A DNA stretch of 64,000 bases from Escherichia coli (GTDB lineage: Bacteria; Pseudomonadota; Gammaproteobacteria; Enterobacterales; Enterobacteriaceae): the NCBI RefSeq assembly GCF_036507355.1, contig NZ_AP027877.1. The stretch is one strand, 5' to 3'. The notes under the pieces are model-generated. The model did not search any database. It was not told where the DNA came from and saw only the letters and a program-made list of their open reading frames with translations. Both the position numbers and the translations under genes were made by a program. Position 1 is the stretch's first letter. The number at the start of each line of letters is the position of its first letter. Below are positions 31,686-64,000 of the stretch, piece by piece.

Positions 31686-33545
31686 ATGAGCAAAGGAACG
31701 ACCAGCCAGGATGCCCCGTTCGGGACATTATTGGGCTACGCCCCAGGTGGGGTAGCAATCTACTCTTCAGATTACAGTTCTCTCGATCCGCAGGAATACG
31801 AAGATGACGCCGTATTCCGTAGCTATATCGACGACGAATATATGGGCCACAAATGGCAATGCGTTGAATTTGCTCGCCGTTTTCTCTTTCTGAACTACGG
31901 TGTGGTCTTTACTGACGTGGGTATGGCGTGGGAGATTTTCTCGCTGCGCTTCCTGCGTGAAGTGGTTAATGACAACATCCTGCCATTGCAGGCATTTCCT
32001 AACGGCTCGCCGCGTGCGCCGGTCGCGGGTGCGCTTCTTATCTGGGATAAAGGCGGTGAATTTAAAGACACTGGCCATGTCGCCATCATTACCCAATTAC
32101 ATGGCAACAAAGTCCGTATTGCGGAACAGAACGTGATTCATTCCCCGTTGCCGCAAGGGCAACAGTGGACGCGCGAACTGGAGATGGTGGTCGAAAACGG
32201 CTGCTATACCCTTAAAGATACTTTTGATGATACCACCATTCTGGGCTGGATGATCCAGACGGAAGATACTGAATACAGCTTACCGCAGCCGGAAATTGCA
32301 GGCGAGCTGCTGAAAATCAGCGGAGCGCGCCTGGAAAACAAAGGCCAGTTTGACGGTAAATGGCTGGATGAAAAAGATCCGCTACAAAACGCCTATGTGC
32401 AGGCCAACGGTCAGGTGATCAATCAGGATCCGTATCATTATTACACCATTACCGAGAGCGCCGAGCAGGAGCTGATTAAAGCCACCAACGAGCTGCACCT
32501 GATGTATCTTCACGCAACCGACAAGGTGCTGAAAGATGACAACCTGCTGGCGCTGTTCGACATTCCGAAAATCCTCTGGCCACGTTTGCGTCTCTCCTGG
32601 CAGCGTCGCCGTCACCATATGATCACCGGTCGTATGGATTTCTGCATGGATGAGCGTGGTCTGAAGGTTTACGAGTACAACGCCGACTCCGCCTCATGTC
32701 ATACCGAAGCGGGCTTGATCCTCGAACGTTGGGCGGAGCAGGGCTATAAAGGCAACGGCTTCAATCCGGCGGAAGGGCTGATTAACGAACTGGCTGGTGC
32801 CTGGAAACACAGTCGTGCACGTCCGTTTGTCCATATCATGCAGGACAAAGATATCGAGGAAAACTATCACGCGCAGTTTATGGAGCAGGCGCTGCACCAG
32901 GCGGGCTTTGAAACGCGTATCTTGCGCGGGCTGGATGAACTGGGCTGGGATGCTGCCGGGCAACTGATTGATGGGGAAGGGCGACTGGTTAACTGCGTGT
33001 GGAAAACCTGGGCGTGGGAAACCGCGTTTGATCAGATTCGTGAAGTTAGCGACCGTGAGTTTGCTGCGGTGCCAATCCGTACCGGTCATCCGCAAAACGA
33101 AGTGCGTCTTATCGACGTATTGCTGCGCCCGGAAGTGCTGGTCTTTGAGCCGCTGTGGACGGTGATCCCCGGCAACAAAGCGATTCTGCCGATCCTCTGG
33201 TCGCTGTTCCCGCACCATCGTTACCTGCTGGATACCGATTTCACTGTTAATGATGAATTGGTGAAAACAGGTTACGCAGTGAAACCGATTGCCGGTCGCT
33301 GTGGTAGCAATATCGACCTGGTCAGCCATCATGAAGAGGTGCTGGACAAAACCAGCGGTAAATTTGCCGAGCAGAAAAACATCTATCAGCAACTGTGGTG
33401 TTTGCCGAAAGTGGACGGGAAATACATTCAGGTATGTACCTTCACCGTTGGCGGCAACTACGGTGGGACGTGTTTGCGCGGTGATGAATCACTGGTTATT
33501 AAAAAAGAGAGTGATATTGAACCGTTAATTGTGGTGAAAGAGTAA
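31686..33545 (+). CDS. gss: Bifunctional glutathionylspermidine synthetase/amidase
   Basis: ORF 31683-33545; ATG at 31686 gives MSKGTTSQDAPFGTLLGYAP... (619 aa); CHAP amidase N-domain with Cys, ATP-grasp C-domain. Confidence 0.95.
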   Translation: MSKGTTSQDAPFGTLLGYAPGGVAIYSSDYSSLDPQEYEDDAVFRSYIDDEYMGHKWQCVEFARRFLFLNYGVVFTDVGMAWEIFSLRFLREVVNDNILPLQAFPNGSPRAPVAGALLIWDKGGEFKDTGHVAIITQLHGNKVRIAEQNVIHSPLPQGQQWTRELEMVVENGCYTLKDTFDDTTILGWMIQTEDTEYSLPQPEIAGELLKISGARLENKGQFDGKWLDEKDPLQNAYVQANGQVINQDPYHYYTITESAEQELIKATNELHLMYLHATDKVLKDDNLLALFDIPKILWPRLRLSWQRRRHHMITGRMDFCMDERGLKVYEYNADSASCHTEAGLILERWAEQGYKGNGFNPAEGLINELAGAWKHSRARPFVHIMQDKDIEENYHAQFMEQALHQAGFETRILRGLDELGWDAAGQLIDGEGRLVNCVWKTWAWETAFDQIREVSDREFAAVPIRTGHPQNEVRLIDVLLRPEVLVFEPLWTVIPGNKAILPILWSLFPHHRYLLDTDFTVNDELVKTGYAVKPIAGRCGSNIDLVSHHEEVLDKTSGKFAEQKNIYQQLWCLPKVDGKYIQVCTFTVGGNYGGTCLRGDESLVIKKESDIEPLIVVKE

Positions 33546-33558
33546 TACATGTTGTAGC

Positions 33559-33598
33559 AATCCCGTACTGATTATGAAGAATAGTCAGTACGGGGATT
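33559..33598. terminator. Stem-loop downstream of gss
   Basis: Near-perfect inverted repeat AATCCCGTACTGA ... TCAGTACGGGGATT; no strong T-run, so terminator function is uncertain. Confidence 0.35.
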
Positions 33599-33836
33599 AA
33601 TCAAAATATTCAATATTTATATATTCAAATATTTATTCATTTCATATGTGAATACATTAACCAGCAGAATGCCTGTGTTCTAATTATTTCTAAAGATTTT
33701 TAATGAATGCTTATTGTCTGATACACAAGAAATAACACTCTTTTTATCGTTAAAAAATGATATTTCACTTTGCCCACACCGTTAAAGTCACTGATAATGC
33801 GTCCGTTCGTAAATTCAAAATGGCGTAATCTAATAT

Positions 33837-35336
33837 ATGCTAAATTTATTTGTTGGCCTTGATATATACACAGGGCTTTTGTTATTACTTGCTCTGGCAT
33901 TTGTGTTGTTCTACGAAGCAATCAATGGTTTTCATGACACGGCGAATGCGGTGGCAACCGTTATTTATACTCGTGCCATGCAGCCACAGCTTGCCGTGGT
34001 GATGGCGGCATTTTTTAACTTTTTTGGCGTGTTATTGGGCGGACTTAGCGTTGCCTATGCCATTGTCCATATGTTGCCAACCGATTTGTTGCTGAATATG
34101 GGGTCAACCCACGGCCTGGCGATGGTCTTTTCCATGCTGCTGGCGGCGATTATCTGGAACCTGGGAACGTGGTTCTTCGGTTTACCGGCCTCCAGTTCGC
34201 ACACCTTGATTGGTGCGATTATCGGCATCGGTTTAACCAACGCGCTGTTAACCGGCTCATCGGTGATGGATGCGTTAAACCTGCGTGAAGTGACCAAAAT
34301 TTTCTCCTCGCTGATTGTTTCCCCTATCATCGGCCTGGTCATTGCGGGAGGCCTGATATTCCTGCTGCGCCGTTTCTGGAGCGGAACGAAAAAGCGTGAC
34401 CGTATTCACCGCATTCCGGAAGATCGCAAAAAGAAAAAAGGCAAACGTAAGCCGCCATTCTGGACGCGTATTGCGCTGATTGTTTCCGCTGCGGGCGTGG
34501 CGTTTTCGCACGGCGCTAACGACGGGCAGAAAGGGATCGGCCTGGTGATGCTGGTACTGGTGGGGATTGCCCCTGCTGGCTTCGTCGTCAATATGAACGC
34601 GTCCGGCTATGAAATTACCCGTACCCGCGATGCCGTTACCAACTTCGAACACTACCTGCAACAGCATCCTGAACTGCCGCAGAAGTTGATTGCGATGGAA
34701 CCTCCATTGCCTGCGGCATCGTCTGATGGCATGCAAGTAACGGAGTTTCACTGTCATCCGGCAAATACCTTTGATGCGATTGCGCGCGTTAAAACGATGC
34801 TGCCAGGCAATATGGAAAGTTACGAGCCGTTAAGCGTGAGTCAGCGCAGCCAGCTGCGCCGCATTATGCTGTGCATCTCTGATACCTCCGCGAAGCTGGC
34901 GAAACTGCCAGGCGTCAGTAAAGAAGACCAGAACCTGCTGAAAAAACTTCGCAGCGATATGTTAAGCACCATTGAGTACGCTCCGGTGTGGATCATCATG
35001 GCAGTAGCACTGGCGCTCGGCATTGGCACCATGATTGGCTGGCGTCGTGTTGCGATGACCATCGGTGAGAAGATTGGTAAGCGCGGCATGACGTATGCGC
35101 AAGGCATGGCGGCACAAATGACGGCGGCAGTGTCTATCGGTCTTGCCAGTTATATTGGGATGCCCGTCTCCACAACACACGTCCTCTCGTCTGCAGTTGC
35201 AGGGACGATGGTGGTGGACGGCGGTGGGTTACAGCGTAAAACGGTAACCAGCATCCTGATGGCGTGGGTATTTACTTTACCGGCGGCGATTTTTCTTTCT
35301 GGTGGGCTGTACTGGATAGCATTGCAGTTGATTTAA
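33837..35336 (+). CDS. pitB: Low-affinity inorganic phosphate transporter PitB
   Basis: 499-aa polytopic [42 protein letters not shown]...; recognised as PitB. Confidence 0.95.
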
Positions 35337-42756: not shown

Positions 42757-43929
42757 TTACTGCTTCAGAGTAGCAAATGCCTGAATGATGGCATCGATTT
42801 GCTCACGACTGTGGGCAGCGTTTACGCTACAGCGCAGCAGCGTGATGCCTGCAGGCGCGGCAGGTGGCAGGATAAGATTCACATAAACGCCCAGCGAAAT
42901 AAGCTCGCGCCAGATGCGTAAACCTTCCTCTTTCGAACCGATTATTACCGGCACTACCGGACTAATATGTGAACTTAACTCATAACTCAGCTTTTGCAGC
43001 CCGTCATACAGATGGTTGGCATTATCCATCAGTTTTTGCCGCAACTCTGGTTGAGTGGCAATGGTTCTTAACGACGAGCGCACGGTTGCAATGCAGGAAG
43101 GAGAAGGGGAGGCGGTAAAAATATACGGACGACTGCCGTAGCGCAGCACTTCCATCGCTTCCGAACCCACGGCAAAACCACCAATAGAAGCCAGGCTTTT
43201 ACTGAAGGTGCCAACGATAATATCCACATCATCTTCAACGCCAACGGCTTCAACCAGCCCGCGCCCCGTTGCGCCTAACACGCCAAACGAGTGAGCTTCA
43301 TCGACAATTAAATATCCGCCGAGACGACGTTTGATATCAACAATTTCCGCCAGCGGCGCAACGTCACCGAGCATACTGTAGATGCCCTCAACGATGATAA
43401 TCGCCTCTTTCGCCCGTTCACCGAGGCGAACCATGCGCCGTTCCAGATCTTTAGCATCGTTATGGCGGAAACGAATAATTTCCGCGCCACCGAGAGAACA
43501 GGCGTCATAAATACTGGCGTGGCTGTCAGCATCCAGTAACACCACGGCGTTATGGTCGGCAAGTGCGCTGATGACGCCTAAATTAGCGGTATAACCGGTT
43601 GAAAAAACGATAGCGGTAGGGCGATTGAAAAACTCAGCAATCTCTTTCTCTAACGCCAGATGCGGCGCATAACTGCCGTTTGCCATACGAGAACCGGTGG
43701 TGCCGGTGCCTTGGGCCGCTAACGCTGCCTGACCTTCGGCGATGGCATCATGATTGAAGGTTAATCCGAGATAATTATTGGTCCCGGCCAGAATCACTTT
43801 TTTATTGCCGATCCGGCCTTCGGTGGCGGAATACACTTCATCAATACAGGTGCCAAACGGTGTTAACCCGTTGTCACTAAATTGCAGACGCTCGCCAGCA
43901 AGGCGCGCATATTTATCGTATAGCCCCAT
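42757..43929 (-). CDS. PLP-dependent alpha-oxoamine synthase, serine-palmitoyltransferase-like
   Basis: 390-aa ORF; DEAHSFGVLG and GTFSKSLASIGGF (PLP-lysine motif of the AONS/SPT/KBL family); ATG overlaps the stop of the upstream ACP gene. Confidence 0.85.
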   Translation of the reverse strand: MGLYDKYARLAGERLQFSDNGLTPFGTCIDEVYSATEGRIGNKKVILAGTNNYLGLTFNHDAIAEGQAALAAQGTGTTGSRMANGSYAPHLALEKEIAEFFNRPTAIVFSTGYTANLGVISALADHNAVVLLDADSHASIYDACSLGGAEIIRFRHNDAKDLERRMVRLGERAKEAIIIVEGIYSMLGDVAPLAEIVDIKRRLGGYLIVDEAHSFGVLGATGRGLVEAVGVEDDVDIIVGTFSKSLASIGGFAVGSEAMEVLRYGSRPYIFTASPSPSCIATVRSSLRTIATQPELRQKLMDNANHLYDGLQKLSYELSSHISPVVPVIIGSKEEGLRIWRELISLGVYVNLILPPAAPAGITLLRCSVNAAHSREQIDAIIQAFATLKQ

Positions 43930-44177
43930 TATTTATTCTCCAGCCATGGAAGTAGAGTTTCCATTAATTGCGCAGGGGTTTTGACATCCAGCAGAATATT
44001 AATAGGAATGGAAATATCGAATCTGTCTTCCAGCATCATTAAGAGATCCATCACTTTGATCGACTCCAGGCCAAGATCGTTGACGAGATCGCTGTCGGGC
44101 TTAATTTCCACACCGTTTTCGACCAAATCCTGTAAACAGGAAAGGATGTAATCCATTACTATTTCACGATTTACCAT
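43929..44177 (-). CDS. Acyl carrier protein (dedicated, non-AcpP)
   Basis: 82-aa acidic ORF with DLGLESIKVMDL phosphopantetheine-attachment-type serine motif. Confidence 0.8.
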   Translation of the reverse strand: MVNREIVMDYILSCLQDLVENGVEIKPDSDLVNDLGLESIKVMDLLMMLEDRFDISIPINILLDVKTPAQLMETLLPWLENK

Positions 44178-44208
44178 AGAAACGTTAACACACCTTTAAA
44201 CAAGACAA

Positions 44209-45123
44209 TCAAAATAGCCCGTTGCGTAATGCGTGTTCCAGGCTAATCCCGGGAAACCAATTAATATCTTCAGAAATACGGTTATTACTTGCCGACCAGT
44301 CGGCGTGGGTTAATTCACGAATTTTCGAGCGGGTCAGCATAGGTTCTTTACCTGCCAGGCGACTCAACGCGGTACTGATATCCGCAAGGCAGGTGAGTAC
44401 CGGCAGAGGAATGCCAACCATTCGCACGGAACCACAACGGGCGTCGGCGGCAAGTTGCTGTACGCGTTGCCAGTCATAGCCGCCAGCGACGCCATCGCAT
44501 AATTCATAGGTTTGCGTCTGTACAGTTTCGGCGCTTAACCACTGACCCACTGCTTGCGCAAAATCGGTGACATGCAGGAAAGAGAGCTGTGTATCTGGTG
44601 CACCAAGTCGTGGCAGCAGGCCGCGCAGCATCCAGTCAAACAGCGGTTTTAACTCTTTATCGCCGGGACCATACACGGCTGTCGGGCGAAAAACGCCCAG
44701 CGTAATTTCGTCAGCCATTGCCGTCAGCCGTTGTTCGGCGACGTGTTTGGAATTTGCGTACCAGGAGAGCTCGGGATGGCGCGCCGCCAGCGAAGAGATA
44801 AACAGAAAACGTTGGCAAAAGCCGCTCTCTTTTGCTGCTTGCATCAGGCGCAGGCTGCCGTCAACGTTACAGTGGGTAAAAATCTCTTCTTTGTGTCCGC
44901 GCACTTGCCCGGCGCAATGGACCACCGCGCTGGCTCCGGCAACCAGTTCGCTAAGCGAATGTGTATCTTCCAGCGAACCGCGCACCCAAGTAAGATTATC
45001 ATTGACGTGAGCGCGGGCAGTACGCGTCAATGCGCGAACGTGAAAGCCGCGGGCGAGCAGGTTATCGATAATATATTTACCGATAAAACCGGTAGCGCCC
45101 GTCACCGCGACAGTTTGATTCAT
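44209..45123 (-). CDS. NAD(P)-dependent epimerase/dehydratase-family (extended SDR) reductase
   Basis: 304-aa ORF; N-terminal VTGATGFIGKYI Rossmann motif; YANSK (YxxxK) catalytic motif; start overlaps the upstream stop (ATGA). Confidence 0.8.
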   Translation of the reverse strand: MNQTVAVTGATGFIGKYIIDNLLARGFHVRALTRTARAHVNDNLTWVRGSLEDTHSLSELVAGASAVVHCAGQVRGHKEEIFTHCNVDGSLRLMQAAKESGFCQRFLFISSLAARHPELSWYANSKHVAEQRLTAMADEITLGVFRPTAVYGPGDKELKPLFDWMLRGLLPRLGAPDTQLSFLHVTDFAQAVGQWLSAETVQTQTYELCDGVAGGYDWQRVQQLAADARCGSVRMVGIPLPVLTCLADISTALSRLAGKEPMLTRSKIRELTHADWSASNNRISEDINWFPGISLEHALRNGLF

Positions 45124-46841
45124 GCCAGGGATTCCTGCACATGAAGGCTTGCAGCATAAGCCTTCTGATAACGTTTTTTCGCTTCCGCACGGGCAGGCTT
45201 GCCGGAGGACGTTCGGGGAATGCTGTGGGGCGGCAACAGATCGATAGCCGCGGTCACGCCAAATTCGCTTTGGATCCGTGCTGCCAGCGCGTGGATAAGC
45301 TGCCCGCGACGTTCTTCATCGCTGATCCGACACTGGATCTGCAAAATGATTTTTTCCTGGACGGTAACAAAAGCAATCGCATCGCCAGAATGAATTTCCG
45401 GTTCCTGTTCCGCTATATATTCAATATCCTGCGGCCAGATATTACGGCCACGAATAATAATCAGATCTTTAATGCGTCCGGTGACATACAGATAACCATC
45501 CAGCAGATAACCGAGGTCGCCAGTGTCTAACCAGCCCGTCGCGGCAATCTCGTCTTGCGAAGCCTGGTCGCCAAAGTAACCGCTCATCAGACTGGGACCG
45601 GAGATGCAAATATGGCCTACCACACGTTCCGCGACCGGCATACCTGCTTGATTGCGGATTTCAATACCATGTTCCGGCAACGCTTTGCCGCAGTTGACGA
45701 AAGTCGATACGGCGCGTGTCTCTGCACCCGGCGCGACGGCTTTACCCTGATATTCGAGGATGTCGCGATCCACTTCGTTAACTACAACCCCGGAGGCTTC
45801 ATCAGAGAAGCTGACAGCCAGCGCATTTTCTGCCAGGCCGTAGCACGGCATGAAAGTTTTATCGTCAAAGTTAACCTGACGGAAACATTCAGCGAATTGA
45901 TGGAGTTGTTCTGCGGAGATGGGTTCTGCACCAATACCAGCGACGCGCCAGCAGGAAAGATCCAGTTCAGCGAGATCTTTTTCATTCACGCGGCGCTGGC
46001 ACAATTCATAGCCAAACGGCGGCGCAACGGAAACGGTGCCGCGATTTTTACTGATCAATTTAAGCCATTGCAGAGGACGCATGGCAAAATCCTGAGTGCG
46101 CAAATAATCTACTGAAAGTTGCGTGGCGACGGGGGTCAGGAGAAAGCCGACCAGTCCCATATCATGGTAGAAAGGCAGCCAGGAGACGCAGCGGTCGCCA
46201 GGGCGTAATTTAATGCCGTCGTGGCTTATAGCACGTAGATTAGCCATCACTTCGCGATGGGTGATAATGACGCCACGGGGAAAACGGGTGCTGCCGGAGG
46301 TGTACTGGAGGTAGGCGATATCGTTCGGAACTGGACGCTGGAGCGCAACATCGGCTTCCGGTAATGCCTTAAACCAGGCGTGGCTTAAAACATGTAATTC
46401 GGGGTTGTCATGCGTCGCGGCATTGACCAGTGGCAACCACTCATCACCAGTGATAATGGCTGCGGGCTGGCAACTTGTCAGTAAACCCTGCAATTTGGCG
46501 CTCCAGGAATCCCGCTGACCAACGCCCATTGGAATCGCCAACGGGACGGCGACTAAGCCGGCATACTGGCAGGCAAAAAAAGCCTCTACGAACCCGCTAC
46601 TTGTTTCGGCAATCAGTGCCACGCGATCGCCTTTTTTCAGGTTCAGCGATAACAACCGCTTCGCACCAGCTTCGGCACGCGCTTTTAACGTCTGATATTC
46701 CAGTTGATCTTCAAGTTGGCAACGTCTGTCATAAAAATTCATTCCAGCGCTACTCAGAGCGGCGTAGTCCAAAGCATCAACCAGCGTTGGAAAATCGGCA
46801 TAGCGTATAGGTAGGGAATGCGTAAAGATTTTATTAGACAT
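45120..46841 (-). CDS. Fatty acyl-AMP ligase / acyl-ACP synthetase (adenylate-forming enzyme)
   Basis: ORF 45120-46850 (GTG) trimmed to ATG 46839-46841 (MSNKIFTHSL...); AMP-binding core motifs YTSGSTRFPRGV and TGDLGY...GRIKDLIIIRGRNI. Confidence 0.85.
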   Translation of the reverse strand: MSNKIFTHSLPIRYADFPTLVDALDYAALSSAGMNFYDRRCQLEDQLEYQTLKARAEAGAKRLLSLNLKKGDRVALIAETSSGFVEAFFACQYAGLVAVPLAIPMGVGQRDSWSAKLQGLLTSCQPAAIITGDEWLPLVNAATHDNPELHVLSHAWFKALPEADVALQRPVPNDIAYLQYTSGSTRFPRGVIITHREVMANLRAISHDGIKLRPGDRCVSWLPFYHDMGLVGFLLTPVATQLSVDYLRTQDFAMRPLQWLKLISKNRGTVSVAPPFGYELCQRRVNEKDLAELDLSCWRVAGIGAEPISAEQLHQFAECFRQVNFDDKTFMPCYGLAENALAVSFSDEASGVVVNEVDRDILEYQGKAVAPGAETRAVSTFVNCGKALPEHGIEIRNQAGMPVAERVVGHICISGPSLMSGYFGDQASQDEIAATGWLDTGDLGYLLDGYLYVTGRIKDLIIIRGRNIWPQDIEYIAEQEPEIHSGDAIAFVTVQEKIILQIQCRISDEERRGQLIHALAARIQSEFGVTAAIDLLPPHSIPRTSSGKPARAEAKKRYQKAYAASLHVQESLA

Positions 46842-46850
46842 ATACACCAC

Positions 46851-56118: not shown

Positions 56119-57801
56119 ATGGTTACCTGGACCCAAATGTATATGCCGATGGGAGGACTGGGGCTATCCGCTCTGGTTGCCCTGATCCCAATAATATTCT
56201 TCTTCGTTGCACTTGCGGTATTACGTCTGAAAGGACATGTCGCCGGAGCGATAACCCTTATATTATCTATCCTGATTGCGATATTCGCCTTTAAAATGCC
56301 GATTGATATGGCATTTGCTGCTGCGGGCTATGGCTTTATTTATGGTTTATGGCCAATTGCGTGGATTATTGTCGCGGCGGTGTTCCTGTATAAATTAACC
56401 GTTGCCAGCGGACAGTTCGATATTATCCGCAGCTCGGTTATCTCCATCACCGACGATCAGCGTTTGCAGGTGTTACTGATTGGTTTCTCCTTTGGTGCGT
56501 TGCTGGAAGGAGCGGCTGGCTTTGGTGCGCCGGTGGCGATTACCGGTGCGCTGCTGGTGGGCCTGGGCTTCAAACCGTTATACGCGGCGGGGCTGTGTCT
56601 GATTGCCAATACTGCGCCGGTGGCGTTTGGTGCGTTGGGCGTGCCGATTCTGGTCGCCGGTCAGGTAACGGGAATCGATCCGTTCCACATTGGCGCAATG
56701 GCGGGACGTCAGTTACCGTTCCTGTCGGTTCTTGTGCCGTTCTGGCTGGTAGCAATGATGGACGGCTGGAAAGGGGTGAAAGAGACGTGGCCAGCGGCGC
56801 TGGTTGCTGGGGGAAGCTTCGCTGTCACTCAGTTCTTTACCTCTAATTATATTGGTCCGGAACTGCCGGATATTACTTCGGCGCTGGTGAGTATCGTCTC
56901 ACTCGCTTTATTCCTTAAAGTCTGGCGGCCGAAAAATACCGAAACGGCAATCAGCATGGGACAATCCGCAGGTGCGATGGTGGTAAATAAGCCATCTTCT
57001 GGCGGTCCCGTACCTTCAGAATATAGTCTGGGGCAAATCATTCGAGCGTGGTCACCGTTTTTAATCTTAACGGTGCTGGTCACCATCTGGACCATGAAGC
57101 CGTTTAAAGCGTTATTTGCTCCGGGCGGCGTGTTTTATTCACTGGTGATTAATTTCCAGATCCCTCATTTGCATCAACAAGTGTTGAAAGCGGCACCCAT
57201 TGTCGCCCAACCAACGCCAATGGATGCGGTGTTTAAATTCGACCCCCTCTCGGCTGGCGGCACCGCTATTTTTATTGCGGCGATTATCTCTATCTTCATC
57301 CTCGGCGTGGGCATCAAGAAAGGGATTGGCGTCTTTGCCGAAACGCTAATTAGTCTGAAGTGGCCGATATTGTCGATTGGCATGGTGCTGGCGTTCGCCT
57401 TCGTCACCAACTATTCCGGCATGTCCACCACGCTGGCGCTGGTACTGGCAGGTACAGGCGTGATGTTCCCGTTCTTCTCACCGTTCCTCGGTTGGCTGGG
57501 GGTATTCCTTACCGGCTCGGACACTTCTTCAAACGCCCTGTTTGGTTCACTGCAATCGACCACGGCGCAGCAAATCAACGTCTCTGACACTCTGCTGGTG
57601 GCAGCAAATACCAGCGGCGGCGTAACTGGCAAGATGATCTCCCCGCAATCTATCGCCGTGGCCTGCGCCGCGACGGGCATGGTGGGCCGAGAATCTGAAC
57701 TGTTCCGCTACACCGTGAAGCACAGTCTGATTTTTGCCAGCGTTATCGGCATTATCACGCTGCTGCAGGCGTATGTGTTTACTGGAATGTTAGTCTCGTA
57801 A
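56119..57801 (+). CDS. glcA: Glycolate/lactate permease (LctP family)
   Basis: 560-aa polytopic [37 protein letters not shown]...; recognised as GlcA. Confidence 0.95.
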
Positions 57802-57810
57802 GTCAATAAT

Positions 57811-57850
57811 GCCGGATGAAGGTAAATATCATCCGGCTTTCCATTTGTTT
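57811..57850 (+). terminator. Rho-independent terminator after glcA
   Basis: Hairpin GCCGGATGA-AGGTAAATA-TCATCCGGC followed by TTTCCATTTGTTTG. Confidence 0.6.
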
Positions 57851-58170
57851 GTCGTTTATCTCGCCAGGGAACCGTTTTTACGATTGGCTTCTTAATACAT
57901 AGTCTCCGTTTTACAATGCAAATTGTTTAATATTTATACGTCTGAGCTTCTGTGCTGGTTATAAAGCACCCACTTTCATGAGATCAATTTTAGTATGTTA
58001 TTACATTGCTACGTCTGTTCTTTTCATGACGAATGGCGTTTTTTCTCTTGTTTGTATTTTTCACGAGAGCAATGAGCAGATCAAAATTCCCAAAAACATA
58101 AGATTATTCGCAATGAATCGCCACGGGTTTAACAGACACCTCAGAGTCATTTAAGATGGCTTAAAGAGAG

Positions 58171-58455
58171 GTGCCCATGAGCGGTAAGCGTTATCCCGAA
58201 GAGTTTAAAATTGAAGCAGTCAAACAGGTTGTTGATCGCGGTTATTCTGTTGCCAGCGTTGCAACACGTCTCGATATCACCACCCACAGCCTTTACGCCT
58301 GGATAAAGAAGTACGGTCCGGATTCTTCCGCTAATAAAGAACAGTCAGATGCTCAGGCCGAGATCCGCCGTCTCCAGAAAGAGCTGAAGCGGGTTACCGA
58401 CGAACGGGACATATTAAAAAAAGCCGCGGCGTACTTCGCAAAGCTGTCCGACTGA
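58171..58455 (+). CDS. IS3-family transposase OrfA (HTH domain)
   Basis: 94-aa ORF MPMSGKRYPEEFKIEAVKQVVDRGYSVASVATRLDITTHSLYAWIKKYG... with leucine-zipper-like C-terminus typical of IS3 OrfA. Confidence 0.9.
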   Translation: MPMSGKRYPEEFKIEAVKQVVDRGYSVASVATRLDITTHSLYAWIKKYGPDSSANKEQSDAQAEIRRLQKELKRVTDERDILKKAAAYFAKLSD

Positions 58456-59324
58456 GGTACGCCTTTATCCGTGACAACACCTGTTGCTGGCCTGTTCGCC
58501 TGCTCTGTCGGGTGCTGGATGTTCATCCCAGTGGTTTTTACGCCTGGCTTCAGCAGCCGCATTCACAACGCCATCAGGCAGACCTGAGGCTGACAGGGCA
58601 GATTAAACAGTTCTGGCTGGAATCGGGATGCGTCTATGGTTATCGCAAAATCCATCTGGATCTGCGGGACAGCGGGCAACAGTGCGGAGTGAACAGAGTC
58701 TGGCGACTGATGAAACGTGTCGGGATAAAGGCTCAGGTCGGATACCGGAGCCCGCGGGCACGTAAAGGCGAGGCCAGTATCGTGTCGCCCAACAGGCTCC
58801 AGCGACAGTTCAATCCGGATGCTCCGGATAAGCGTTGGGTAACGGACATAACCTACATCAGGACCCACGAAGGCTGGCTGTATCTTGCCGTGGTTGTTGA
58901 TCTGTTCTCACGCAAAATTATCGGCTGGTCCATGCAATCCCGGATGACAAAGGACATTGTCCTGAACGCACTGCTGATGGCTGTATGGCGCCGTAATCCC
59001 CAAAAACAGGTGCTGGTTCATTCGGATCAGGGCAGTCAGTACACAAGCCATGAGTGGCAGTCGTTCCTGAAATCACACGGCCTGGAGGGCAGCATGAGCC
59101 GTCGCGGTAACTGCCATGATAATGCGGTTGCAGAAAGCTTTTTCCAGTTGTTGAAACGCGAACGGATAAAGAAAAAGATCTACGGAACGCGGGAAGAAGC
59201 CCGCAGCGATATTTTTGATTACATCGAAATGTTTTATAACAGTAAGCGTCGGCATGGTTCCAGCGATCAGATGTCACCGACAGAATATGAAAACCAGTAT
59301 TATCAACGGCTCGGAAGTGTCTAG
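58416..59324 (+). CDS. IS3-family transposase OrfB (DDE integrase core), expressed as OrfAB fusion by -1 frameshift
   Basis: -1 frame is open from the slippery site; contains WVTDITYIRTHEGWLYLAVVVDLFSRKIIGWSM, HSDQGSQYTS and CHDNAVAESFF DDE-core motifs; the first in-frame ATG is at 58512. Confidence 0.85.
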   Translation, partial: KKSRGVLRKAVRLRYAFIRDNTCCWPVRLLCRVLDVHPSGFYAWLQQPHSQRHQADLRLTGQIKQFWLESGCVYGYRKIHLDLRDSGQQCGVNRVWRLMKRVGIKAQVGYRSPRARKGEASIVSPNRLQRQFNPDAPDKRWVTDITYIRTHEGWLYLAVVVDLFSRKIIGWSMQSRMTKDIVLNALLMAVWRRNPQKQVLVHSDQGSQYTSHEWQSFLKSHGLEGSMSRRGNCHDNAVAESFFQLLKRERIKKKIYGTREEARSDIFDYIEMFYNSKRRHGSSDQMSPTEYENQYYQRLGSV

Positions 59325-59339
59325 ATTACCCGTGGCGAT

Positions 59340-59555
59340 TCAGTCATCAGTAATTACGCTGTCATCCAGTTTCGCATAACAGATACTGTCATCACCGGCT
59401 TCAATATAGCTGGAAAAATTCTCACTGATGAAGCGGTAGAAAAGGGCACCGAGTACATACTGTTTAAAATCCCATCCATCTACGGAGCCTCTGACATCAT
59501 TGGCAATGGCCCAGATTTGGCGGTGTAGCTCTGCACGCTGCTGAAGGCTTGTCAT
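59340..59555 (-). pseudogene. hsdM: Truncated type I restriction-modification methyltransferase (hsdM) N-terminal remnant
   Basis: 71-codon ORF MTSLQQRAELHRQIWAIANDVRGSVDGWDFKQYVLGALFYRFISENFSSYIEAGDDSI... matches the N-terminus of type IC HsdM (EcoR124-like) as I recall it, then runs directly into the IS right end. Confidence 0.7.
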
Positions 59556-59758
59556 TTTGTATCCTGTTGTATGATTCTTAAGTACTGTTATTGGCCCGAT
59601 TTTATCGTAATTTCATATTGATGACAGGCTTTGTATGTCATACGTTGCACTGAGAGTTCGTTTGCCCGGTTGTGTAGGCAGCGCTCTTTCAGCCAGGTCA
59701 GTAGAAACGTTGCGCTGACGATAAATACTGAAGCCCCAATACCATCGGGGCTGAACGT

Positions 59759-61636
59759 TCAGTCGGTGAGAATTTCTTCATCCGTATCCATTGTGGATGG
59801 TGATGAATCTATTTTTGTTGTAAGAAATACCCGATTCAGTAGTCTTTGCTTCAGGGCGTTTCTTCGCTCATTGTAGAACTCCGGGAAGCGACTGAACTCA
59901 ATATTTTCATCTGAAACTAACAGCATTGATGGCGAATAGTTGTTTGATGGCTGAGATAGCCATTGTTTCAGGGAAGTATCCTGTTTACTTATATTCTGAG
60001 AGTGATTCAGTAAATGAAGATTAGGTATGGTGTCCCAGTGCTCCGGATTTTCATAAAAGCTGAGGTTCTCTGGTGTATTCGCAACATAATCTAATTTTTC
60101 AAGATATTTCTTTGAAAAATGATTTCTTGGGTGAAGGTGATCAATATGAAACACCTCGGTCGGATTCATTTCAGGGAACAGAAGATGCAATAGTGCGCGG
60201 CAACGACCTTCGCCATATCTGATATTGAGAAGGCTTTCGATGTATTCGTCGTCAAATCTGAGGTCTTTATTCGAGCCTTTATATCTGTCAATAATCTTCT
60301 CAAGAGGAAAGTGAATATCTGAAAGACTATTTTTCATTACATCTCTGATACTCGTGAGTAGCGCATCTGCCTGGCTTCCAAAGATCCCTTTCAGAAGTAC
60401 CATGTAAAACCACTGGCTAATTACTGAGCGTTCATTGTGGTTTTTATTCAGGAGATTAATCGTTGTATATAATGGATGTCCACTGGTTTGCTTTTTGTAA
60501 AGCCAGTAGACCACAGGAATGACTGCATTTTTAGATATCAAAGACTGTGGATTGATGCCGAATCGCCTGATAAGAATAAAGGTCTCCTTGATACAGGATT
60601 TTATTTCAGACCATTGTTGTTGTATCTTACCGACCTCCTCTGAAGTGAAGTTTTTTACTTTGAACCGGACGTCAGAGTCAATAAGCATCAGGCTGGTTTT
60701 TAAGAACCAGTCTCTTTCAATATAAAAACCCATTTCATTATTCTGATAAATGTTTTTTGTCAGTTCATCCAGTTCTTTTCTGAAATCACCCTGCCAGTGC
60801 GCTACCGCTATTGACATCAGTAAGTCTGAAAACTCAAGTTTTGTCCCCCCGCTGTTCGTGCGGATGAAAACATCCAGCACATGATCAATGTCCTGACTGC
60901 TCTCATTGAAGTAGTGGATAAGATTCTCAGTTCTTATCTTGGTATAAAGTTTAAGCAGAGTTTTTCTGGAAAATTCACTGGAAATGAGATCTCTTTTTTC
61001 AAGTTCTGGTACGACAACGTTAAATAAAATATCATCAGGCGAATCATGTTGCTCGTATTTGAATATTTCGTGCAGGCAGAACCAGTGATGTTTGTTATCG
61101 GCAAGTGAATCAGTATATTGCTTCTCGGTCAGGAACCTGAAGTTATACTTCATCATGAGCTCATCGTCTGACTTAAGTGGCGCGGTTAAATCGACGTAAA
61201 GCTTTCTGGGTGGCAGGATGCGATCATCCTGTGCCGAAGGCCACCACATCCGGGGCTGTTTATACGCATACGTTCCACACAATCCAATATATAATGATGT
61301 GAGACGCTGCTGACCATCAATCACGGCCTTGAAATCATGAAACCCAGCATTTGTTGCTACGCAGGGGTTTTCTTCATTAAATCGCTGACAGTATTCTTTC
61401 AGGAACTCATAGAATTTGTAATCATTTTTAATACTGGCACTACGGATATCCCACATCATGAAAGAGTTTATCGGGTAGTCTCGCATGATGGAATCAAACA
61501 GCAAACATATCTGACTGCTGCTCCAGACGAACTTCCTCTGAATTGCAGGCAGAAGATAGTGGCGTAAATTAATTGAATCTATCGCTTGTTTTATCGTTAT
61601 TGCTTTTTCATACTGGCCAGCCATCATAAACCTCAT
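59759..61636 (-). CDS. DUF262/DUF1524 (GmrSD-like) putative type IV restriction / defence nuclease
   Basis: 625-aa ORF; N-terminal DUF262 signatures (LPAIQRKFVW, LFDSIMRDYPINSF, VIDGQQRLTSLYIGL); C-terminal His-Me/HNH-like DUF1524 region (HIDHLHPRNHF ... NLHLLNHSQN). Confidence 0.8.
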   Translation of the reverse strand: MRFMMAGQYEKAITIKQAIDSINLRHYLLPAIQRKFVWSSSQICLLFDSIMRDYPINSFMMWDIRSASIKNDYKFYEFLKEYCQRFNEENPCVATNAGFHDFKAVIDGQQRLTSLYIGLCGTYAYKQPRMWWPSAQDDRILPPRKLYVDLTAPLKSDDELMMKYNFRFLTEKQYTDSLADNKHHWFCLHEIFKYEQHDSPDDILFNVVVPELEKRDLISSEFSRKTLLKLYTKIRTENLIHYFNESSQDIDHVLDVFIRTNSGGTKLEFSDLLMSIAVAHWQGDFRKELDELTKNIYQNNEMGFYIERDWFLKTSLMLIDSDVRFKVKNFTSEEVGKIQQQWSEIKSCIKETFILIRRFGINPQSLISKNAVIPVVYWLYKKQTSGHPLYTTINLLNKNHNERSVISQWFYMVLLKGIFGSQADALLTSIRDVMKNSLSDIHFPLEKIIDRYKGSNKDLRFDDEYIESLLNIRYGEGRCRALLHLLFPEMNPTEVFHIDHLHPRNHFSKKYLEKLDYVANTPENLSFYENPEHWDTIPNLHLLNHSQNISKQDTSLKQWLSQPSNNYSPSMLLVSDENIEFSRFPEFYNERRNALKQRLLNRVFLTTKIDSSPSTMDTDEEILTD

Positions 61637-61697
61637 ATGTTATATTAGCTGGCCTATTTTAATTTATTGCGTGTCGGTAGTACAGTCTTTGCACAAA

Positions 61698-62027
61698 CTA
61701 ATTTATGCAATGGAAAAGCTGACGGCTCGGTTTGTGTTTTTCATTCGGGTAGACTCGCATTGCGGATGCACAAAGTGATGAAACCTGTCTTGCTATATTT
61801 TTACCGAAGTTAACAAGTAGGCCGTGCTTTATTTTTTCACCCTCTGCCCTGATGCTGATGACAAAGCTGAACTGATATACGATTACCTCAATGAGGTCAT
61901 TGCCAAATGTTATGATGGCGGCGTTGTTTATTTCATATTCATAATCCCTCAGGTCAGTGTTAAGTCTTGCTGTTGCATTTACAAGTGCGTATTCTTTATC
62001 GATAATCATAACTTTCTCACTTATCAT
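61698..62027 (-). CDS. Hypothetical small protein (109 aa)
   Basis: ORF with ATG start between the WYL regulator and the DUF262/DUF1524 gene on the same strand; no recognisable motif. Confidence 0.45.
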   Translation of the reverse strand: MISEKVMIIDKEYALVNATARLNTDLRDYEYEINNAAIITFGNDLIEVIVYQFSFVISIRAEGEKIKHGLLVNFGKNIARQVSSLCASAMRVYPNEKHKPSRQLFHCIN

Positions 62028-62067
62028 GTTAATGTGATTTAATCATCACTAATAATATGTTGTGATT

Positions 62068-62781
62068 TTAATTACGATTATTCGTCTGTTTACTCCCGTA
62101 ATGCATTATCTGATGAATAATGTTCATGTGGGGTAAGGCTTCCATAAAGTCAGACTGTTCAATCAGCGAAATGAGTGTGTTATCGATCTCAAACGTTGTA
62201 TCCGGTAATACCTCAACCAGCCTGATTCGGGACAGGGAAATAACGAACACGCCCGATGACGTACATCCGGCAAGAAACCACTCCGCATGGCTGCAAAGCA
62301 GACGATAGGGATGAACGGTATGGCTGACGTTTTCGTCGGTTCTGATACGCACCTTGGTCTGGTTAAGTATGGCGAGCGTTAGTCTGCTGAAATCACCGAA
62401 CAGCGTGGGTTTCTGGCGCGGCTCCGGGAGCATAATCCGGTAGGGTGAAGGGTGCTCCCCGTCAAGCAGAAGGCTCAGCAGTTTGGCATCCATCGCGGGT
62501 AACAGACGGTCAAGATGCAGCAGTCTCGCCAGTATCTTCATATCTCGTTCCGTGCGGCGACGAAAGTAATGTGAGGCAAGCTGATACACGCCGTTGCTCT
62601 GTTCAATATCAAGGTAGGTCAGACGGACGTTGAAATCCCGCCGCAGCGTTCGCGTTGTCACTCCAAATTCTTCTGCCAGCGTCCCGATATGCAGCTTTTC
62701 ACCCTGAAACAAACGGCTCAGGATGATGGAAAGGCGGGTTGCCAGTCTGTCATGTTCGTTTTCTTGTGTTATCAGCGTCAT
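62068..62781 (-). CDS. WYL-domain transcriptional regulator (HTH + WYL), BrxR/CapW-like
   Basis: 237-aa ORF; N-terminal HTH (IGTLAEEFGVTTRTLRRDF); central W[YF]L-type region (HPYRLLCSHAEWFLAGCTSSGVFVISLSRIRLVEVL). Confidence 0.7.
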   Translation of the reverse strand: MTLITQENEHDRLATRLSIILSRLFQGEKLHIGTLAEEFGVTTRTLRRDFNVRLTYLDIEQSNGVYQLASHYFRRRTERDMKILARLLHLDRLLPAMDAKLLSLLLDGEHPSPYRIMLPEPRQKPTLFGDFSRLTLAILNQTKVRIRTDENVSHTVHPYRLLCSHAEWFLAGCTSSGVFVISLSRIRLVEVLPDTTFEIDNTLISLIEQSDFMEALPHMNIIHQIMHYGSKQTNNRN

Positions 62782-62883
62782 ACATCATTTCCGAATTTAG
62801 CCGGGAAATGATGCCAGCAGTAGCGGACAGGATTTGTCCACCCTCTGAAGTTTTTTAAAGTCTGAATACCTTAAATGTAAGTG

Positions 62884-63633
62884 CTAAACGTCAGTATTCT
62901 CAGGTGAATAAAGATGCTTCTGGCGCATGTAGGCAATAAAAATGCAGGATGGTAGCGTCACCCGGTATGCGGGACCGGCTAAATCAATCAGCAGCCAGAG
63001 AGAACTGAGCACCCAGCCCACAGGACCGGCAAAAGCGCCCATGGTACGCGTCAGCATGGCATTTCCTGCAACGGTCAGCCCTCTGCCTAACAGGGCTTTC
63101 GCCACACCATTTGTGACAACAAGTGCCATCTGATAGGCCGCAAACCCGGATGTTTTTATCCCCGCCTGGATTGCCATGGTCAGCAACTCCGGCGTGGGGT
63201 TGCTGTAGCCTGTCTGCAATTCTTCCGCCACGGTCTTTAACTGATCGGGCGTCATCTTCTCAAGGCTTTTCTCCAGGATCTTCATCAGCAGATTCATTTC
63301 AATGGTTTCAACACTGGATTTGTTGTTGTAGTTCACCTTCATTTTATCGCAGGCATCGGTGAGAATTTCCCGGTACGGCACCCCTTTACCCCAGCGGAGC
63401 AGCGTGGCAAAGCTGTTCGCCCCAAACGTCTGAACCTCGGCGGCAATGGCATCCCAGTAGCGCGGGTGGTTGGGCTTGTGTTTTTTATACTGAGGATCAT
63501 AGGTCAGCGTTTCCGTGATGCGTGCCAGTCCGTCTTTCGGATCGCAGATAAGCACAGAAACCAGTAAATCCAGATCGTCACGATGGCAGTGGCGCAGAAA
63601 CTCAAGGTCGGGGTCGTGTCGGTAGGTAGCCAT
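62884..63633 (-). CDS. Hypothetical protein, possibly YaaW-like (UPF0174/DUF3944)
   Basis: 249-aa ORF; acidic N-terminal DDLDLLVSVL region and glycine-rich hydrophobic C-terminus (GAFAGPVGWVLSSLWLLIDLAGPAY); family assignment from memory, low certainty. Confidence 0.4.
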   Translation of the reverse strand: MATYRHDPDLEFLRHCHRDDLDLLVSVLICDPKDGLARITETLTYDPQYKKHKPNHPRYWDAIAAEVQTFGANSFATLLRWGKGVPYREILTDACDKMKVNYNNKSSVETIEMNLLMKILEKSLEKMTPDQLKTVAEELQTGYSNPTPELLTMAIQAGIKTSGFAAYQMALVVTNGVAKALLGRGLTVAGNAMLTRTMGAFAGPVGWVLSSLWLLIDLAGPAYRVTLPSCIFIAYMRQKHLYSPENTDV

Positions 63634-63707
63634 ATTTCACCTCATTGCAGATATTGGACCTGACAGTTTAAGGAAGCCACCGGACAGGGCTTGTCCGCCT
63701 GAAAAAC

Positions 63708-63745
63708 AAAAAAGTAAAAAAAACCTGCCGAAAGCAGGTTTCTGT
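63708..63745 (-). terminator. Rho-independent terminator for the partial minus-strand gene at the window end
   Basis: Hairpin AACCTGC-CGAAA-GCAGGTT; on the minus strand it is followed by a T-rich run (plus-strand AAAAAACAAAAAAGTAAAAAAA). Confidence 0.55.
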
Positions 63746-63776
63746 TCACCGGATGGAGGTATAACGCGTCGGGATT

Positions 63777-64000
63777 ACTTTCCGCGCCATTCCTTTTCCA
63801 CTTTATCCGCAAAAGCATCGCACTGCCGGGCATATTCCGGGTTATAGAGCAGCTCCGACTGCGAAAGCTGCATGGCGGTCATGCTGCCGTTACGGGCATT
63901 TGATTCGAGCCAGGTTCTGCCATAGGTTTTGTTCATCACCTGAAGTACCCGGTTGAATACCGGTCCGTTGAAGCGGGCATTGAGATTAACGCCTTTTACC
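63777..64000 (-). CDS. Partial CDS (C-terminal 74 codons), unknown product; gene continues beyond window end
   Basis: Open minus-strand frame ending ...VLQVMNKTYGRTWLESNARNGSMTAMQLSQSELLYNPEYARQCDAFADKVEKEWRGK then TAA at 63777-63779, followed by the terminator. Confidence 0.55.

What the first reader, a model, noticed from the sequence alone, without database searches (positions are those of the whole stretch)
59340..59555. Type I methyltransferase (hsdM) cut after 71 codons by the IS boundary
Seen in sequence: the ORF matches the type IC HsdM N-terminus as I recall it and reads straight into the IS right inverted repeat. The rest of hsdM and any hsdS/hsdR are absent, so the strain has lost this RM system while retaining its promoter-proximal stub.
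Basis: partly seen in the sequence, partly recalled or inferred. Interest (0 to 1): 0.4.

Follow-up and report, generated by a model that had tools for sequence, protein, structure and literature searches.

The report
IS-truncated type IC hsdM remnant
This is the dead 5' end of an EcoR124-type (type IC) restriction-modification methyltransferase gene, left when a deletion next to an ISEhe3-like insertion sequence removed the rest of the system; it is an ordinary pseudogene.

Summary
On the minus strand, 59555..59343 encodes 71 codons. These are 69/71 identical to residues 3-73 of EcoR124II HsdM (E 2.7e-42) and 213/213 nt identical to the start of intact 518-aa hsdM genes in other E. coli. The stop codon (59342..59340, TGA) is the terminal TCA of a 1,229-bp IS3-family element at 58114-59342, which is ISEhe3-like and looks intact.

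It is not a simple insertion. The other side of the IS is the core intergenic DNA just downstream of glcA, the two flanks share no target-site duplication, and the window holds no further hsdM, hsdS or hsdR.

In relatives, the same defence island sits at tRNA-Phe (pheV), in the order glcA side, hsdR, hsdS, hsdM, DUF262, pheV. The window has the same order and orientation. The junction therefore has the topology of an IS-associated deletion. That deletion removed hsdM codons 72-518, hsdS, hsdR, the island's left arm and the core DNA up to glcA.

The 203-bp upstream region, a promoter-like site and the ribosome-binding site are retained, but the stub has under half of the HsdM N-terminal domain and no catalytic domain. 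Loss across the whole genome cannot be checked from one window. Interest is low and the kind is already known.

The parts
59343..59555 (-). hsdM remnant: codons 1-71 of a type IC (EcoR124-like) HsdM
   Evidence: 69/71 aa identical to EcoR124II HsdM residues 3-73. Pfam HsdM_N positions 1-45 of 135. 213/213 nt identical to intact hsdM of L001, L002 and L005.
59340..59342 (-). Stop codon TGA of the stub, supplied by the terminal TCA of the IS right end
   Evidence: Read from the sequence. IS and hsdM homology boundaries.
58114..59342 (+). IS3-family insertion sequence, 1,229 bp, ISEhe3-like, apparently intact, single copy in the window
   Evidence: 99.8-99.9% identical to many 'IS3 family transposase' copies in E. 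coli. TG...CA ends. Pfam HTH_Tnp_1 on OrfA and HTH_21 plus rve on OrfB. The exact 92-aa OrfA sequence is named 'ISEhe3 transposase A' in UniRef. Only a self-hit in the window.
58114..58151 (+). IS left inverted repeat (TGAATCGCCACGGG...)
   Evidence: Inverted-repeat pair I1: 38 nt, 76% complementary.
59305..59342 (+). IS right inverted repeat (...CCCGTGGCGATTCA), which abuts hsdM codon 71
   Evidence: Inverted-repeat pair I1.
58177..58455 (+). IS orfA (92 aa from the ATG; the listed GTG start is at 58171)
   Evidence: ORF list, Pfam HTH_Tnp_1, exact-sequence look-up.
58416..58422 (+). Slippery heptamer A AAA AAA for the -1 programmed frameshift from orfA to orfB
   Evidence: Sequence. The orfB frame is open from 58395 through to the stop at 59322-59324. 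Relatives are annotated 'programmed frameshift'.
58395..59324 (+). IS orfB reading frame (DDE/rve transposase domain), in the -1 frame relative to orfA
   Evidence: Translation. Pfam rve, HTH_21, rve_2 and rve_3.
59556..59758 (-). Retained hsdM upstream intergenic region (203 bp) between the DUF262 stop codon and the hsdM ATG. It includes AGGA (59562-59565), 6 nt before the ATG.
   Evidence: 1-4 mismatches in 203 nt compared with intact loci. Sequence.
59599..59627 (-). Promoter-like site (CTGTCA, 17-nt spacer, TAAAAT); candidate hsdM promoter
   Evidence: Consensus scan, 9/12 match, with the number of sites in the region no higher than in shuffles. The CTG...TAnAAT pattern recurs at the same distance upstream of type IC hsdM in three otherwise unrelated contexts (alignment A1, columns about 163-195). 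Function is inferred, not shown.
57802..58113 (+). Left flank: core glcA 3' intergenic DNA, joined directly to the IS left end
   Evidence: 99.1-99.4% match to the DNA downstream of glcA in 37 E. coli genomes, ending exactly at 58113. glcA is the ORF 56119-57801 (Pfam Lactate_perm; annotated glcA).
59759..61636 (-). Intact upstream neighbour: DUF262/GmrSD_N protein (PADLOC HEC-05), part of the same island
   Evidence: Pfam GmrSD_N, E 1.9e-33. PADLOC HEC-05, E 5e-231. 99% identical to the DUF262 protein of L001.

Best explanation
The 71-codon ORF is a non-functional remnant of a type IC (EcoR124-like) hsdM gene. That gene belonged to an hsdM-hsdS-hsdR operon on a defence island at tRNA-Phe (pheV). 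A 1,229-bp ISEhe3-like IS3-family element now joins hsdM codon 71 directly to the intergenic DNA downstream of the core gene glcA. The most likely history is an IS-associated deletion, either homologous recombination between two directly oriented copies of the IS or an adjacent deletion by the IS itself. It removed hsdM codons 72-518, hsdS, hsdR, the left arm of the island and the core or accessory DNA between the island and glcA. The IS terminal TCA supplies an in-frame TGA immediately after codon 71. The native upstream region (promoter-like site and ribosome-binding site) is still there, so a 71-aa peptide may be made. That peptide covers under half of the HsdM N-terminal domain and none of the methyltransferase domain, so this locus can no longer modify or restrict DNA. 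What is shown: the identity of the stub, the exact boundary, the identity and intactness of the IS, the absence of a target-site duplication, the absence of partner genes in the window, and collinearity with intact relatives. What is inferred: the deletion mechanism, expression of the stub, and loss of the system genome-wide.
For: - **Identity of the stub.** 69/71 identical to EcoR124II HsdM. The intact allele (L001, 518 aa) matches it end to end with 1,152 bits. Pfam HsdM_N is matched.
- **What the stub lacks.** The intact protein has HsdM_N at residues 10-157 and N6_Mtase at 171-479. The stub stops at residue 71.
- **Exact boundary.** hsdM homology starts at 59343. The IS spans 58114-59342.
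- **Left flank.** It is glcA 3' DNA up to 58113.
- **No target-site duplication.** The flanks are ...TTCGCAA and GTCATCAG.... Another copy of the same IS at a simple insertion has a 3-bp duplication, ACA (L016).
- **No partner genes.** tblastn finds no HsdS, HsdR or HsdM residues 72-518 in the window.
- **Intact relatives.** They show gss, pitB ... hsdR, hsdS, hsdM, DUF262 ... integrase, pheV, yqgA (L005; L002). Window 33473-34039 (gss/pitB) and 59343-64000 both align to L001 on the + strand and in the same order. That is deletion topology, not inversion.
- **Recent and strain-specific.** There is no nucleotide change in the stub compared with intact alleles. Neither junction occurs in 5,426 complete E. 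coli genomes, and the IS-hsdM junction, the only one scanned there, is absent from the GTDB species representatives. The exact 71-aa product is on record once: BED20957.1, 'hypothetical protein VEE46_07250', on a 4.64-Mb contig.
Against: Only 64 kb of the genome is visible, so a relocated remainder of the operon, or a second type IC system elsewhere, cannot be excluded. The island is mobile and sits at pheU or inside frvX in other strains. The collinearity argument therefore assumes a pheV location, and pheV lies beyond the window's end. The ancestral content between glcA and the island cannot be reconstructed, because relatives differ there: a Tad pilus and T6SS remnants in L013, a kps capsule cluster in L002. 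The promoter call is a 9/12 consensus match in a region where shuffles give as many sites. No reads are available to verify the assembly across a multi-copy IS.
Confidence: 0.85

Rival explanations
1. Inversion or translocation between two ISEhe3 copies. The remainder of hsdM, together with hsdS and hsdR, survives elsewhere in the genome next to another copy of the IS, so the DNA was rearranged rather than lost.
For: The missing target-site duplication fits any recombination between two IS copies. This IS is multi-copy in many E. coli genomes, with up to 16 places per genome matching the IS-containing query.
Against: Both flanks are in the native relative order and orientation seen in genomes with the intact island at pheV. 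An inversion would place the segment to the right of the IS in reverse orientation. Even if true, hsdM would remain split and inactive.
Confidence: 0.05
2. Assembly artefact. Two real ISEhe3 copies, one downstream of glcA and one inside or near hsdM, were collapsed or misjoined, so the junction does not exist in the cell.
For: A 1.2-kb multi-copy repeat is a classic misjoin point. The two junctions tested here are otherwise unseen in the collections each was searched against.
Against: The only public record of the exact stub lies on a 4,643,937-bp, chromosome-sized contig, so the source assembly is apparently finished. The flanks are collinear neighbours, not random partners. Comparable deletions in the same interval exist in other finished genomes, for example the IS1-bounded junction between truncated pitB and the island in L001 and L005. 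In either case hsdM would still be interrupted at nt 213 by the IS.
Confidence: 0.05
3. Simple insertion of the IS into an otherwise complete hsdM, with the 3' part of the gene on the other side of the IS.
For: This is the commonest way an IS inactivates a gene.
Against: The other side of the IS is glcA 3' intergenic DNA. There is no hsdM remainder anywhere in the window. There is no target-site duplication.
Confidence: 0.01
4. The 71-aa product is a retained, functional small protein, for example an HsdM N-terminal fragment that interferes with assembly of incoming type IC enzymes, rather than debris.
For: The start codon, Shine-Dalgarno sequence and upstream region are intact. Stubs of similar length exist in other contexts: an 82-aa ORF in L007-L010 on at least 10 contigs.
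Against: Zero divergence from intact alleles indicates a recent event, not conservation. The exact product is on record in a single genome. The similar lengths of other stubs are largely imposed by the length-restricted cluster that was read. The fragment is under half of one domain.
Confidence: 0.02

Closest known systems
HsdM of the type IC restriction-modification family (EcoR124I/II; PDB 7bst, 7bto-7btr)
   Same: Residues 1-71 are 97% identical to EcoR124II HsdM residues 3-73. Intact alleles of the same island gene are near-identical over all 518 aa. In relatives, hsdM is followed by hsdS and by an hsdR with the EcoR124_C domain.
   Different: Only 71 of 518 codons remain. The methyltransferase domain, hsdS and hsdR are missing. 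The locus is on a chromosomal island at a tRNA-Phe gene next to a DUF262/HEC-05 gene. From my own knowledge, not tested here, EcoR124I itself is plasmid-borne.
ISEhe3 (IS3 family)
   Same: 1,229 bp with TG...CA ends and imperfect 38-nt inverted repeats. OrfA (HTH_Tnp_1) and OrfB (rve) overlap in the -1 frame with an A AAA AAA slippery site. The exact OrfA sequence is labelled 'ISEhe3 transposase A' in UniRef.
   Different: It was not compared with the ISfinder reference sequence, so the name rests on a database label. This copy lacks the 3-bp target-site duplication seen at a simple insertion of the same IS.
IS-bounded deletions at the E. coli pheV island / glc-pitB interval
   Same: RCAD0514 and AHM9C68I have IS1 copies joining a truncated pitB to the same island. 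PKF8 has IS1 cutting the DUF262 gene next to pheV. In each case an IS sits at a junction between core and island DNA with genes missing.
   Different: Here the IS is ISEhe3-like rather than IS1. The breakpoints are glcA 3' DNA and hsdM codon 71, so the RM system itself was destroyed.

Membership tests
Type IC HsdM (EcoR124I family) | High sequence identity to EcoR124I/II HsdM, as opposed to the IA, IB or ID families | tested here: met
   The stub is 69/71 identical to 7bst_D, E 2.7e-42, and the stub search (maximum E-value 1) returned no EcoKI (type IA) HsdM. In the full-length search with the intact allele, EcoKI HsdM (2y7c, 2ar0) scores only E ~1e-16 against E = 0 for 7bst_D.
Type IC HsdM (EcoR124I family) | HsdM N-terminal domain (Pfam PF12161) | tested here: met
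   37.2 bits against a cut-off of 24.5, but only profile positions 1-45 of 135 are present. The intact protein covers positions 1-133.
Functional type I methyltransferase subunit | N6_Mtase catalytic domain (PF02384), which holds the AdoMet-binding and catalytic motifs | tested here: not met
   The domain lies at residues 171-479 of the intact protein. The stub ends at residue 71, and no further HsdM-like sequence is in the window.
Complete type I RM system | Adjacent hsdS (specificity) and hsdR (restriction) genes | tested here: not met
   tblastn with HsdS and HsdR from L001 finds nothing in the window. The rest of the genome cannot be tested.
IS3 family insertion sequence | OrfA (HTH) and OrfB (DDE/rve) in 0 and -1 frames with a slippery heptamer | tested here: met
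   Pfam HTH_Tnp_1, rve and HTH_21. A AAA AAA at 58416-58422 with the orfB frame open across it.
IS3 family insertion sequence | Terminal inverted repeats ending 5'-TG...CA-3' | tested here: met
   TGAATCGCCACGGG... and ...CCCGTGGCGATTCA; 38-nt arms.
IS3 family insertion sequence | Short (3-4 bp) direct target-site duplication at a simple insertion | tested here: not met
   The flanks CAA and GTC differ. Copy L016 has ACA on both sides. This fits a deletion or recombination junction and does not count against family membership.
ISEhe3 | Near-identity to the ISfinder ISEhe3 reference sequence | not testable with these tools
   The only evidence is a UniRef name on the identical OrfA and my recollection of a 1,229-bp length for ISEhe3.

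The most novel reading that the evidence does not exclude
The 5' end of type IC hsdM, around codons 71-73, could be a recurrent breakpoint, or a preferentially retained and expressed stub. Independent truncations are seen here after codon 71 (ISEhe3-like IS) and after codon 73 in a fimbrial island (L007-L010), where the stub is fused to a 3' fragment of a different IS3-family transposase. A Shigella sonnei contig (L006) also diverges right after nt 213. If the pattern is non-random, it could reflect an IS target preference or selection for an N-terminal HsdM peptide. The evidence does not exclude this. However, the similar lengths are largely explained by the length-restricted protein cluster that was read.
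Probability: 0.04. Interest if true: 0.4.

Novelty: already known. Interest (0 to 1): 0.1.

Why it matters
It matters little beyond annotation and strain biology.
- The ORF should be labelled an hsdM pseudogene fragment. GenBank currently calls the identical product a 'hypothetical protein'.
- This locus has lost one restriction barrier, while the neighbouring DUF262/HEC-05, WYL-regulator and JukA-like defence genes are intact.
- The case adds one more example of the glcA-to-pheV interval being reshaped by IS-bounded deletions.

Tried and rejected
- **IS-hsdM junction in the GTDB species representatives.** I scanned for the 31-nt junction and found no match.
- **Contigs encoding the exact 71-aa product.** The contig index had no record, although the protein collection holds it once as BED20957.1. 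So the source genome could not be fetched to search for hsdS and hsdR elsewhere.
- **Either IS junction in 5,426 complete E. coli genomes.** Neither junction is present.
- **A hotspot at codons 63-73.** The many 63-73-aa 'partial' HsdM N-termini in draft assemblies might have indicated one. I rejected this. They end at contig ends, they were read from a cluster that only admits similar lengths, and the known allelic SNPs end at nt 147. Contig breaks a k-mer or so further on are therefore what two near-identical hsdM copies in one genome would produce. This last step is inference.
- **The tblastn alignment of HsdM continuing into the IS.** It runs through stop codons at about 24% identity and is spurious.
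- **Target-site duplications at three other copies of the IS.** Only one (L016) is a clean simple insertion, with a 3-bp duplication. L015 and L017 show none.

Full report
**The observation.** The window has a minus-strand ORF at 59340..59555 encoding MTSLQQRAELHRQIWAIANDVRGSVDGWDFKQYVLGALFYRFISENFSSYIEAGDDSICYAKLDDSVITDD.
- It passes the Pfam HsdM_N gathering threshold, covering profile positions 1-45 of 135.
- It matches residues 3-73 of EcoR124II HsdM (PDB 7bst_D) at 69/71 identity, E 2.7e-42.
- The full-length gene in relatives (518 aa, WP_072663497.1) aligns end to end with EcoR124II HsdM at 1,152 bits. EcoKI-type HsdM scores only about 1e-16.

**The boundary.**
- Megablast against 5,426 complete E. 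coli genomes shows homology to intact 'type I restriction-modification system subunit M' genes starting exactly at 59343.
- Homology to a widespread 'IS3 family transposase' element covers about 58114 to 59342.
- The 38-nt inverted-repeat arms are 58114-58151 and 59305-59342.
- The 213 coding nucleotides are identical to the first 213 nt of intact hsdM in three genomes.
- So hsdM is cut exactly after codon 71. The TGA that closes the ORF is the IS terminal TCA read on the other strand.

**The IS.**
- It is 1,229 bp with TG...CA ends.
- OrfA carries HTH_Tnp_1, and OrfB carries HTH_21 and rve.
- The frames overlap at -1, with an A AAA AAA heptamer at 58416-58422 and an open orfB frame across it.
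- It is 99.8-99.9% identical to many other copies, so it looks intact.
- The identical 92-aa OrfA is labelled 'ISEhe3 transposase A' in UniRef. This agrees with my recollection that ISEhe3 is 1,229 bp. I could not compare it with the ISfinder reference.
- It occurs once in the window.

**Not a simple insertion.**
- The DNA left of the IS (57802-58113) is the core sequence downstream of glcA. It matches 37 genomes at about 99% right up to 58113.
- The flanks (...TTCGCAA and GTCATCAG...) share no direct repeat. Another copy of the same IS at a clean insertion has a 3-bp duplication, ACA (L016).
- tblastn with HsdM, HsdS and HsdR from an intact relative finds only the 71-codon stub in the window.

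**What was there before.** Relatives carry the same 4.66 kb to the right of the cut at 97-99.8% identity. In them the order is hsdR, hsdS, hsdM, DUF262, a small hypothetical gene, a WYL/HTH regulator, a DUF3944 (YaaW) gene, and onward.
- In AHM9C68I and PKF8 this island lies at tRNA-Phe pheV next to yqgA and speC.
- In G3/10 it lies at pheU.
- In GPEC1189 it lies inside frvX.

So it is a mobile defence island. In the pheV genomes the chromosome reads gss, pitB ... [island: hsdR, hsdS, hsdM, DUF262 ...], pheV. The window's gss/pitB segment (33473-34039) and its island segment (59343-64000) both align to RCAD0514 on the + strand and in that order. The junction therefore has the A-IS-D topology of a deletion, not of an inversion.

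The lost DNA includes hsdM codons 72-518 (1.34 kb), hsdS (about 1.2 kb), hsdR (3.1 kb), the island's left arm, and whatever lay between the island and glcA. That interval varies among relatives: a Tad pilus cluster and T6SS remnants in TB06052, and a kps capsule cluster in PKF8. Its size cannot be given.

The mechanism is inferred. It was either recombination between two direct IS copies or an IS-adjacent deletion.

**What remains.**
- The 203-bp region between the DUF262 stop codon and the hsdM ATG differs from intact loci at only 1-4 positions.
- It has AGGA 6 nt before the ATG.
- It has a promoter-like CTGTCA-17-TAAAAT site at 59627..59599.
- A CTG...TAnAAT pattern recurs at the same distance upstream of type IC hsdM in three unrelated contexts: an mcrBC/DUF4942 locus, a P1-like phd-doc context and a fimbrial island. 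That gives modest support for a promoter that travels with the gene.
- Expression of the stub is plausible but untested.
- The product would carry under half of HsdM_N (residues 10-157 in the intact protein) and none of N6_Mtase (residues 171-479). It cannot methylate DNA.

**Age and distribution.**
- The stub shows no substitutions against intact alleles.
- Neither junction occurs in the 5,426 complete genomes.
- The IS-hsdM junction, the only one scanned there, is absent from the GTDB representatives.
- The exact 71-aa product is on record once, as BED20957.1, 'hypothetical protein VEE46_07250 [Escherichia coli]', on a 4,643,937-bp contig.

This looks like a recent, strain-specific event in a finished chromosome. 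A finished assembly also lowers, but does not remove, the chance of misassembly at the repeat.

**Limits.** The window is 64 kb. Whether the strain has another hsd locus, or a relocated remainder of this one, cannot be tested here, and the source genome could not be fetched.

**Verdict.** It is an ordinary IS-generated pseudogene of a well-known family. Interest is low.

Noticed in passing
window 59759-61636 (-): The gene directly upstream of the hsdM stub is intact. It is a 622-625-aa DUF262/GmrSD_N protein that matches PADLOC HEC-05 (E 5e-231). Its C-terminal part contains an H..H motif, HIDHLHPRNH. So this candidate type IV-like defence gene survives while its type I neighbour is gone.
   Followed up: partly
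window 62068-62781 (-) and 62884-63633 (-): A WYL/HTH regulator (PADLOC WYL, Pfam HTH_DeoR plus WYL) lies next to a DUF3944 protein that matches PADLOC JukA (E 6e-72). The island to the right of the stub therefore looks like a multi-system defence island. A JukB partner was not looked for.
   Followed up: no
L002, L005 (pheV); L014 (pheU); L003 (inside frvX): The same island module (hsdRSM, DUF262, a WYL/HTH regulator and the DUF3944/YaaW (JukA-like) gene; in three of the four loci also tyrosine recombinases and a DUF927 gene) sits at three different chromosomal sites in different E. coli. One of these sites splits the frvX coding sequence.
   Followed up: partly
L001 365-2356; L005 8364-10355: RCAD0514 and AHM9C68I have two IS1 copies joining a truncated pitB directly to the island's left arm. 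This is an independent IS-bounded loss of the whole yghQ-to-glcA interval that the window still has.
   Followed up: partly
L007-L010 (stub at 6001-6249 in L007-L009, 3686-3934 in L010): A second, independent type IC hsdM stub occurs on at least 10 contigs. It is an 82-aa ORF made of codons 1-73 joined to a 3' fragment of a different IS3-family transposase (its C-terminal residues ...EIFYNRQRRHSRLGNISPAAFREKYHQMAT are readable in another frame). It lies between an A_deaminase-like gene and a GerE/DsbA/fimbrial usher cluster. The breakpoint is only about 7 nt from the one in the window.
   Followed up: partly
L006 6001-6221 (Shigella sonnei NQDE01000063.1): A type IC hsdM next to phd-doc in a P1-like context diverges from the other alleles right after nt 213 (GATGAC|CTTCAACG), and the contig ends 8 nt later. 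This could be the same breakpoint or just a divergent allele. Unresolved.
   Followed up: no
L015 (E. coli G4/9, NZ_CP060073.1 4052793-4054625): Another copy of the same ISEhe3-like element lies between an hsdS gene and mcrB, again without a target-site duplication. This may be a second case of this IS remodelling a restriction locus.
   Followed up: no
P0018-P0027 (draft assemblies; for example L011, L012): Dozens of draft E. coli contigs end 189-219 nt into a type IC hsdM; one 70-aa form (P0018) is on 58 contigs, some of them about 340 kb long. The likely cause is contig breaks where two near-identical hsdM copies in one genome become indistinguishable. This was not tested.
   Followed up: partly
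window 59329: The right inverted repeat of this IS copy has C where three other copies have T (GATTACCCGTGG versus GATTATCCGTGG). This makes the outer 14 nt of the two ends perfectly complementary here.
   Followed up: no
window 42757-46850 (-): ORFs of 390, 304 and 576 aa have about the same sizes and order as the spt (serine palmitoyltransferase), epimerase and fatty acyl-AMP ligase genes upstream of yghO in TB06052 (L004). The match is by size and position only and was not verified.
   Followed up: no
window 57978-58154 (+): A 58-aa ORF runs from the glcA 3' intergenic DNA across the IS left end. It is a chance hybrid ORF created by the junction.
   Followed up: no
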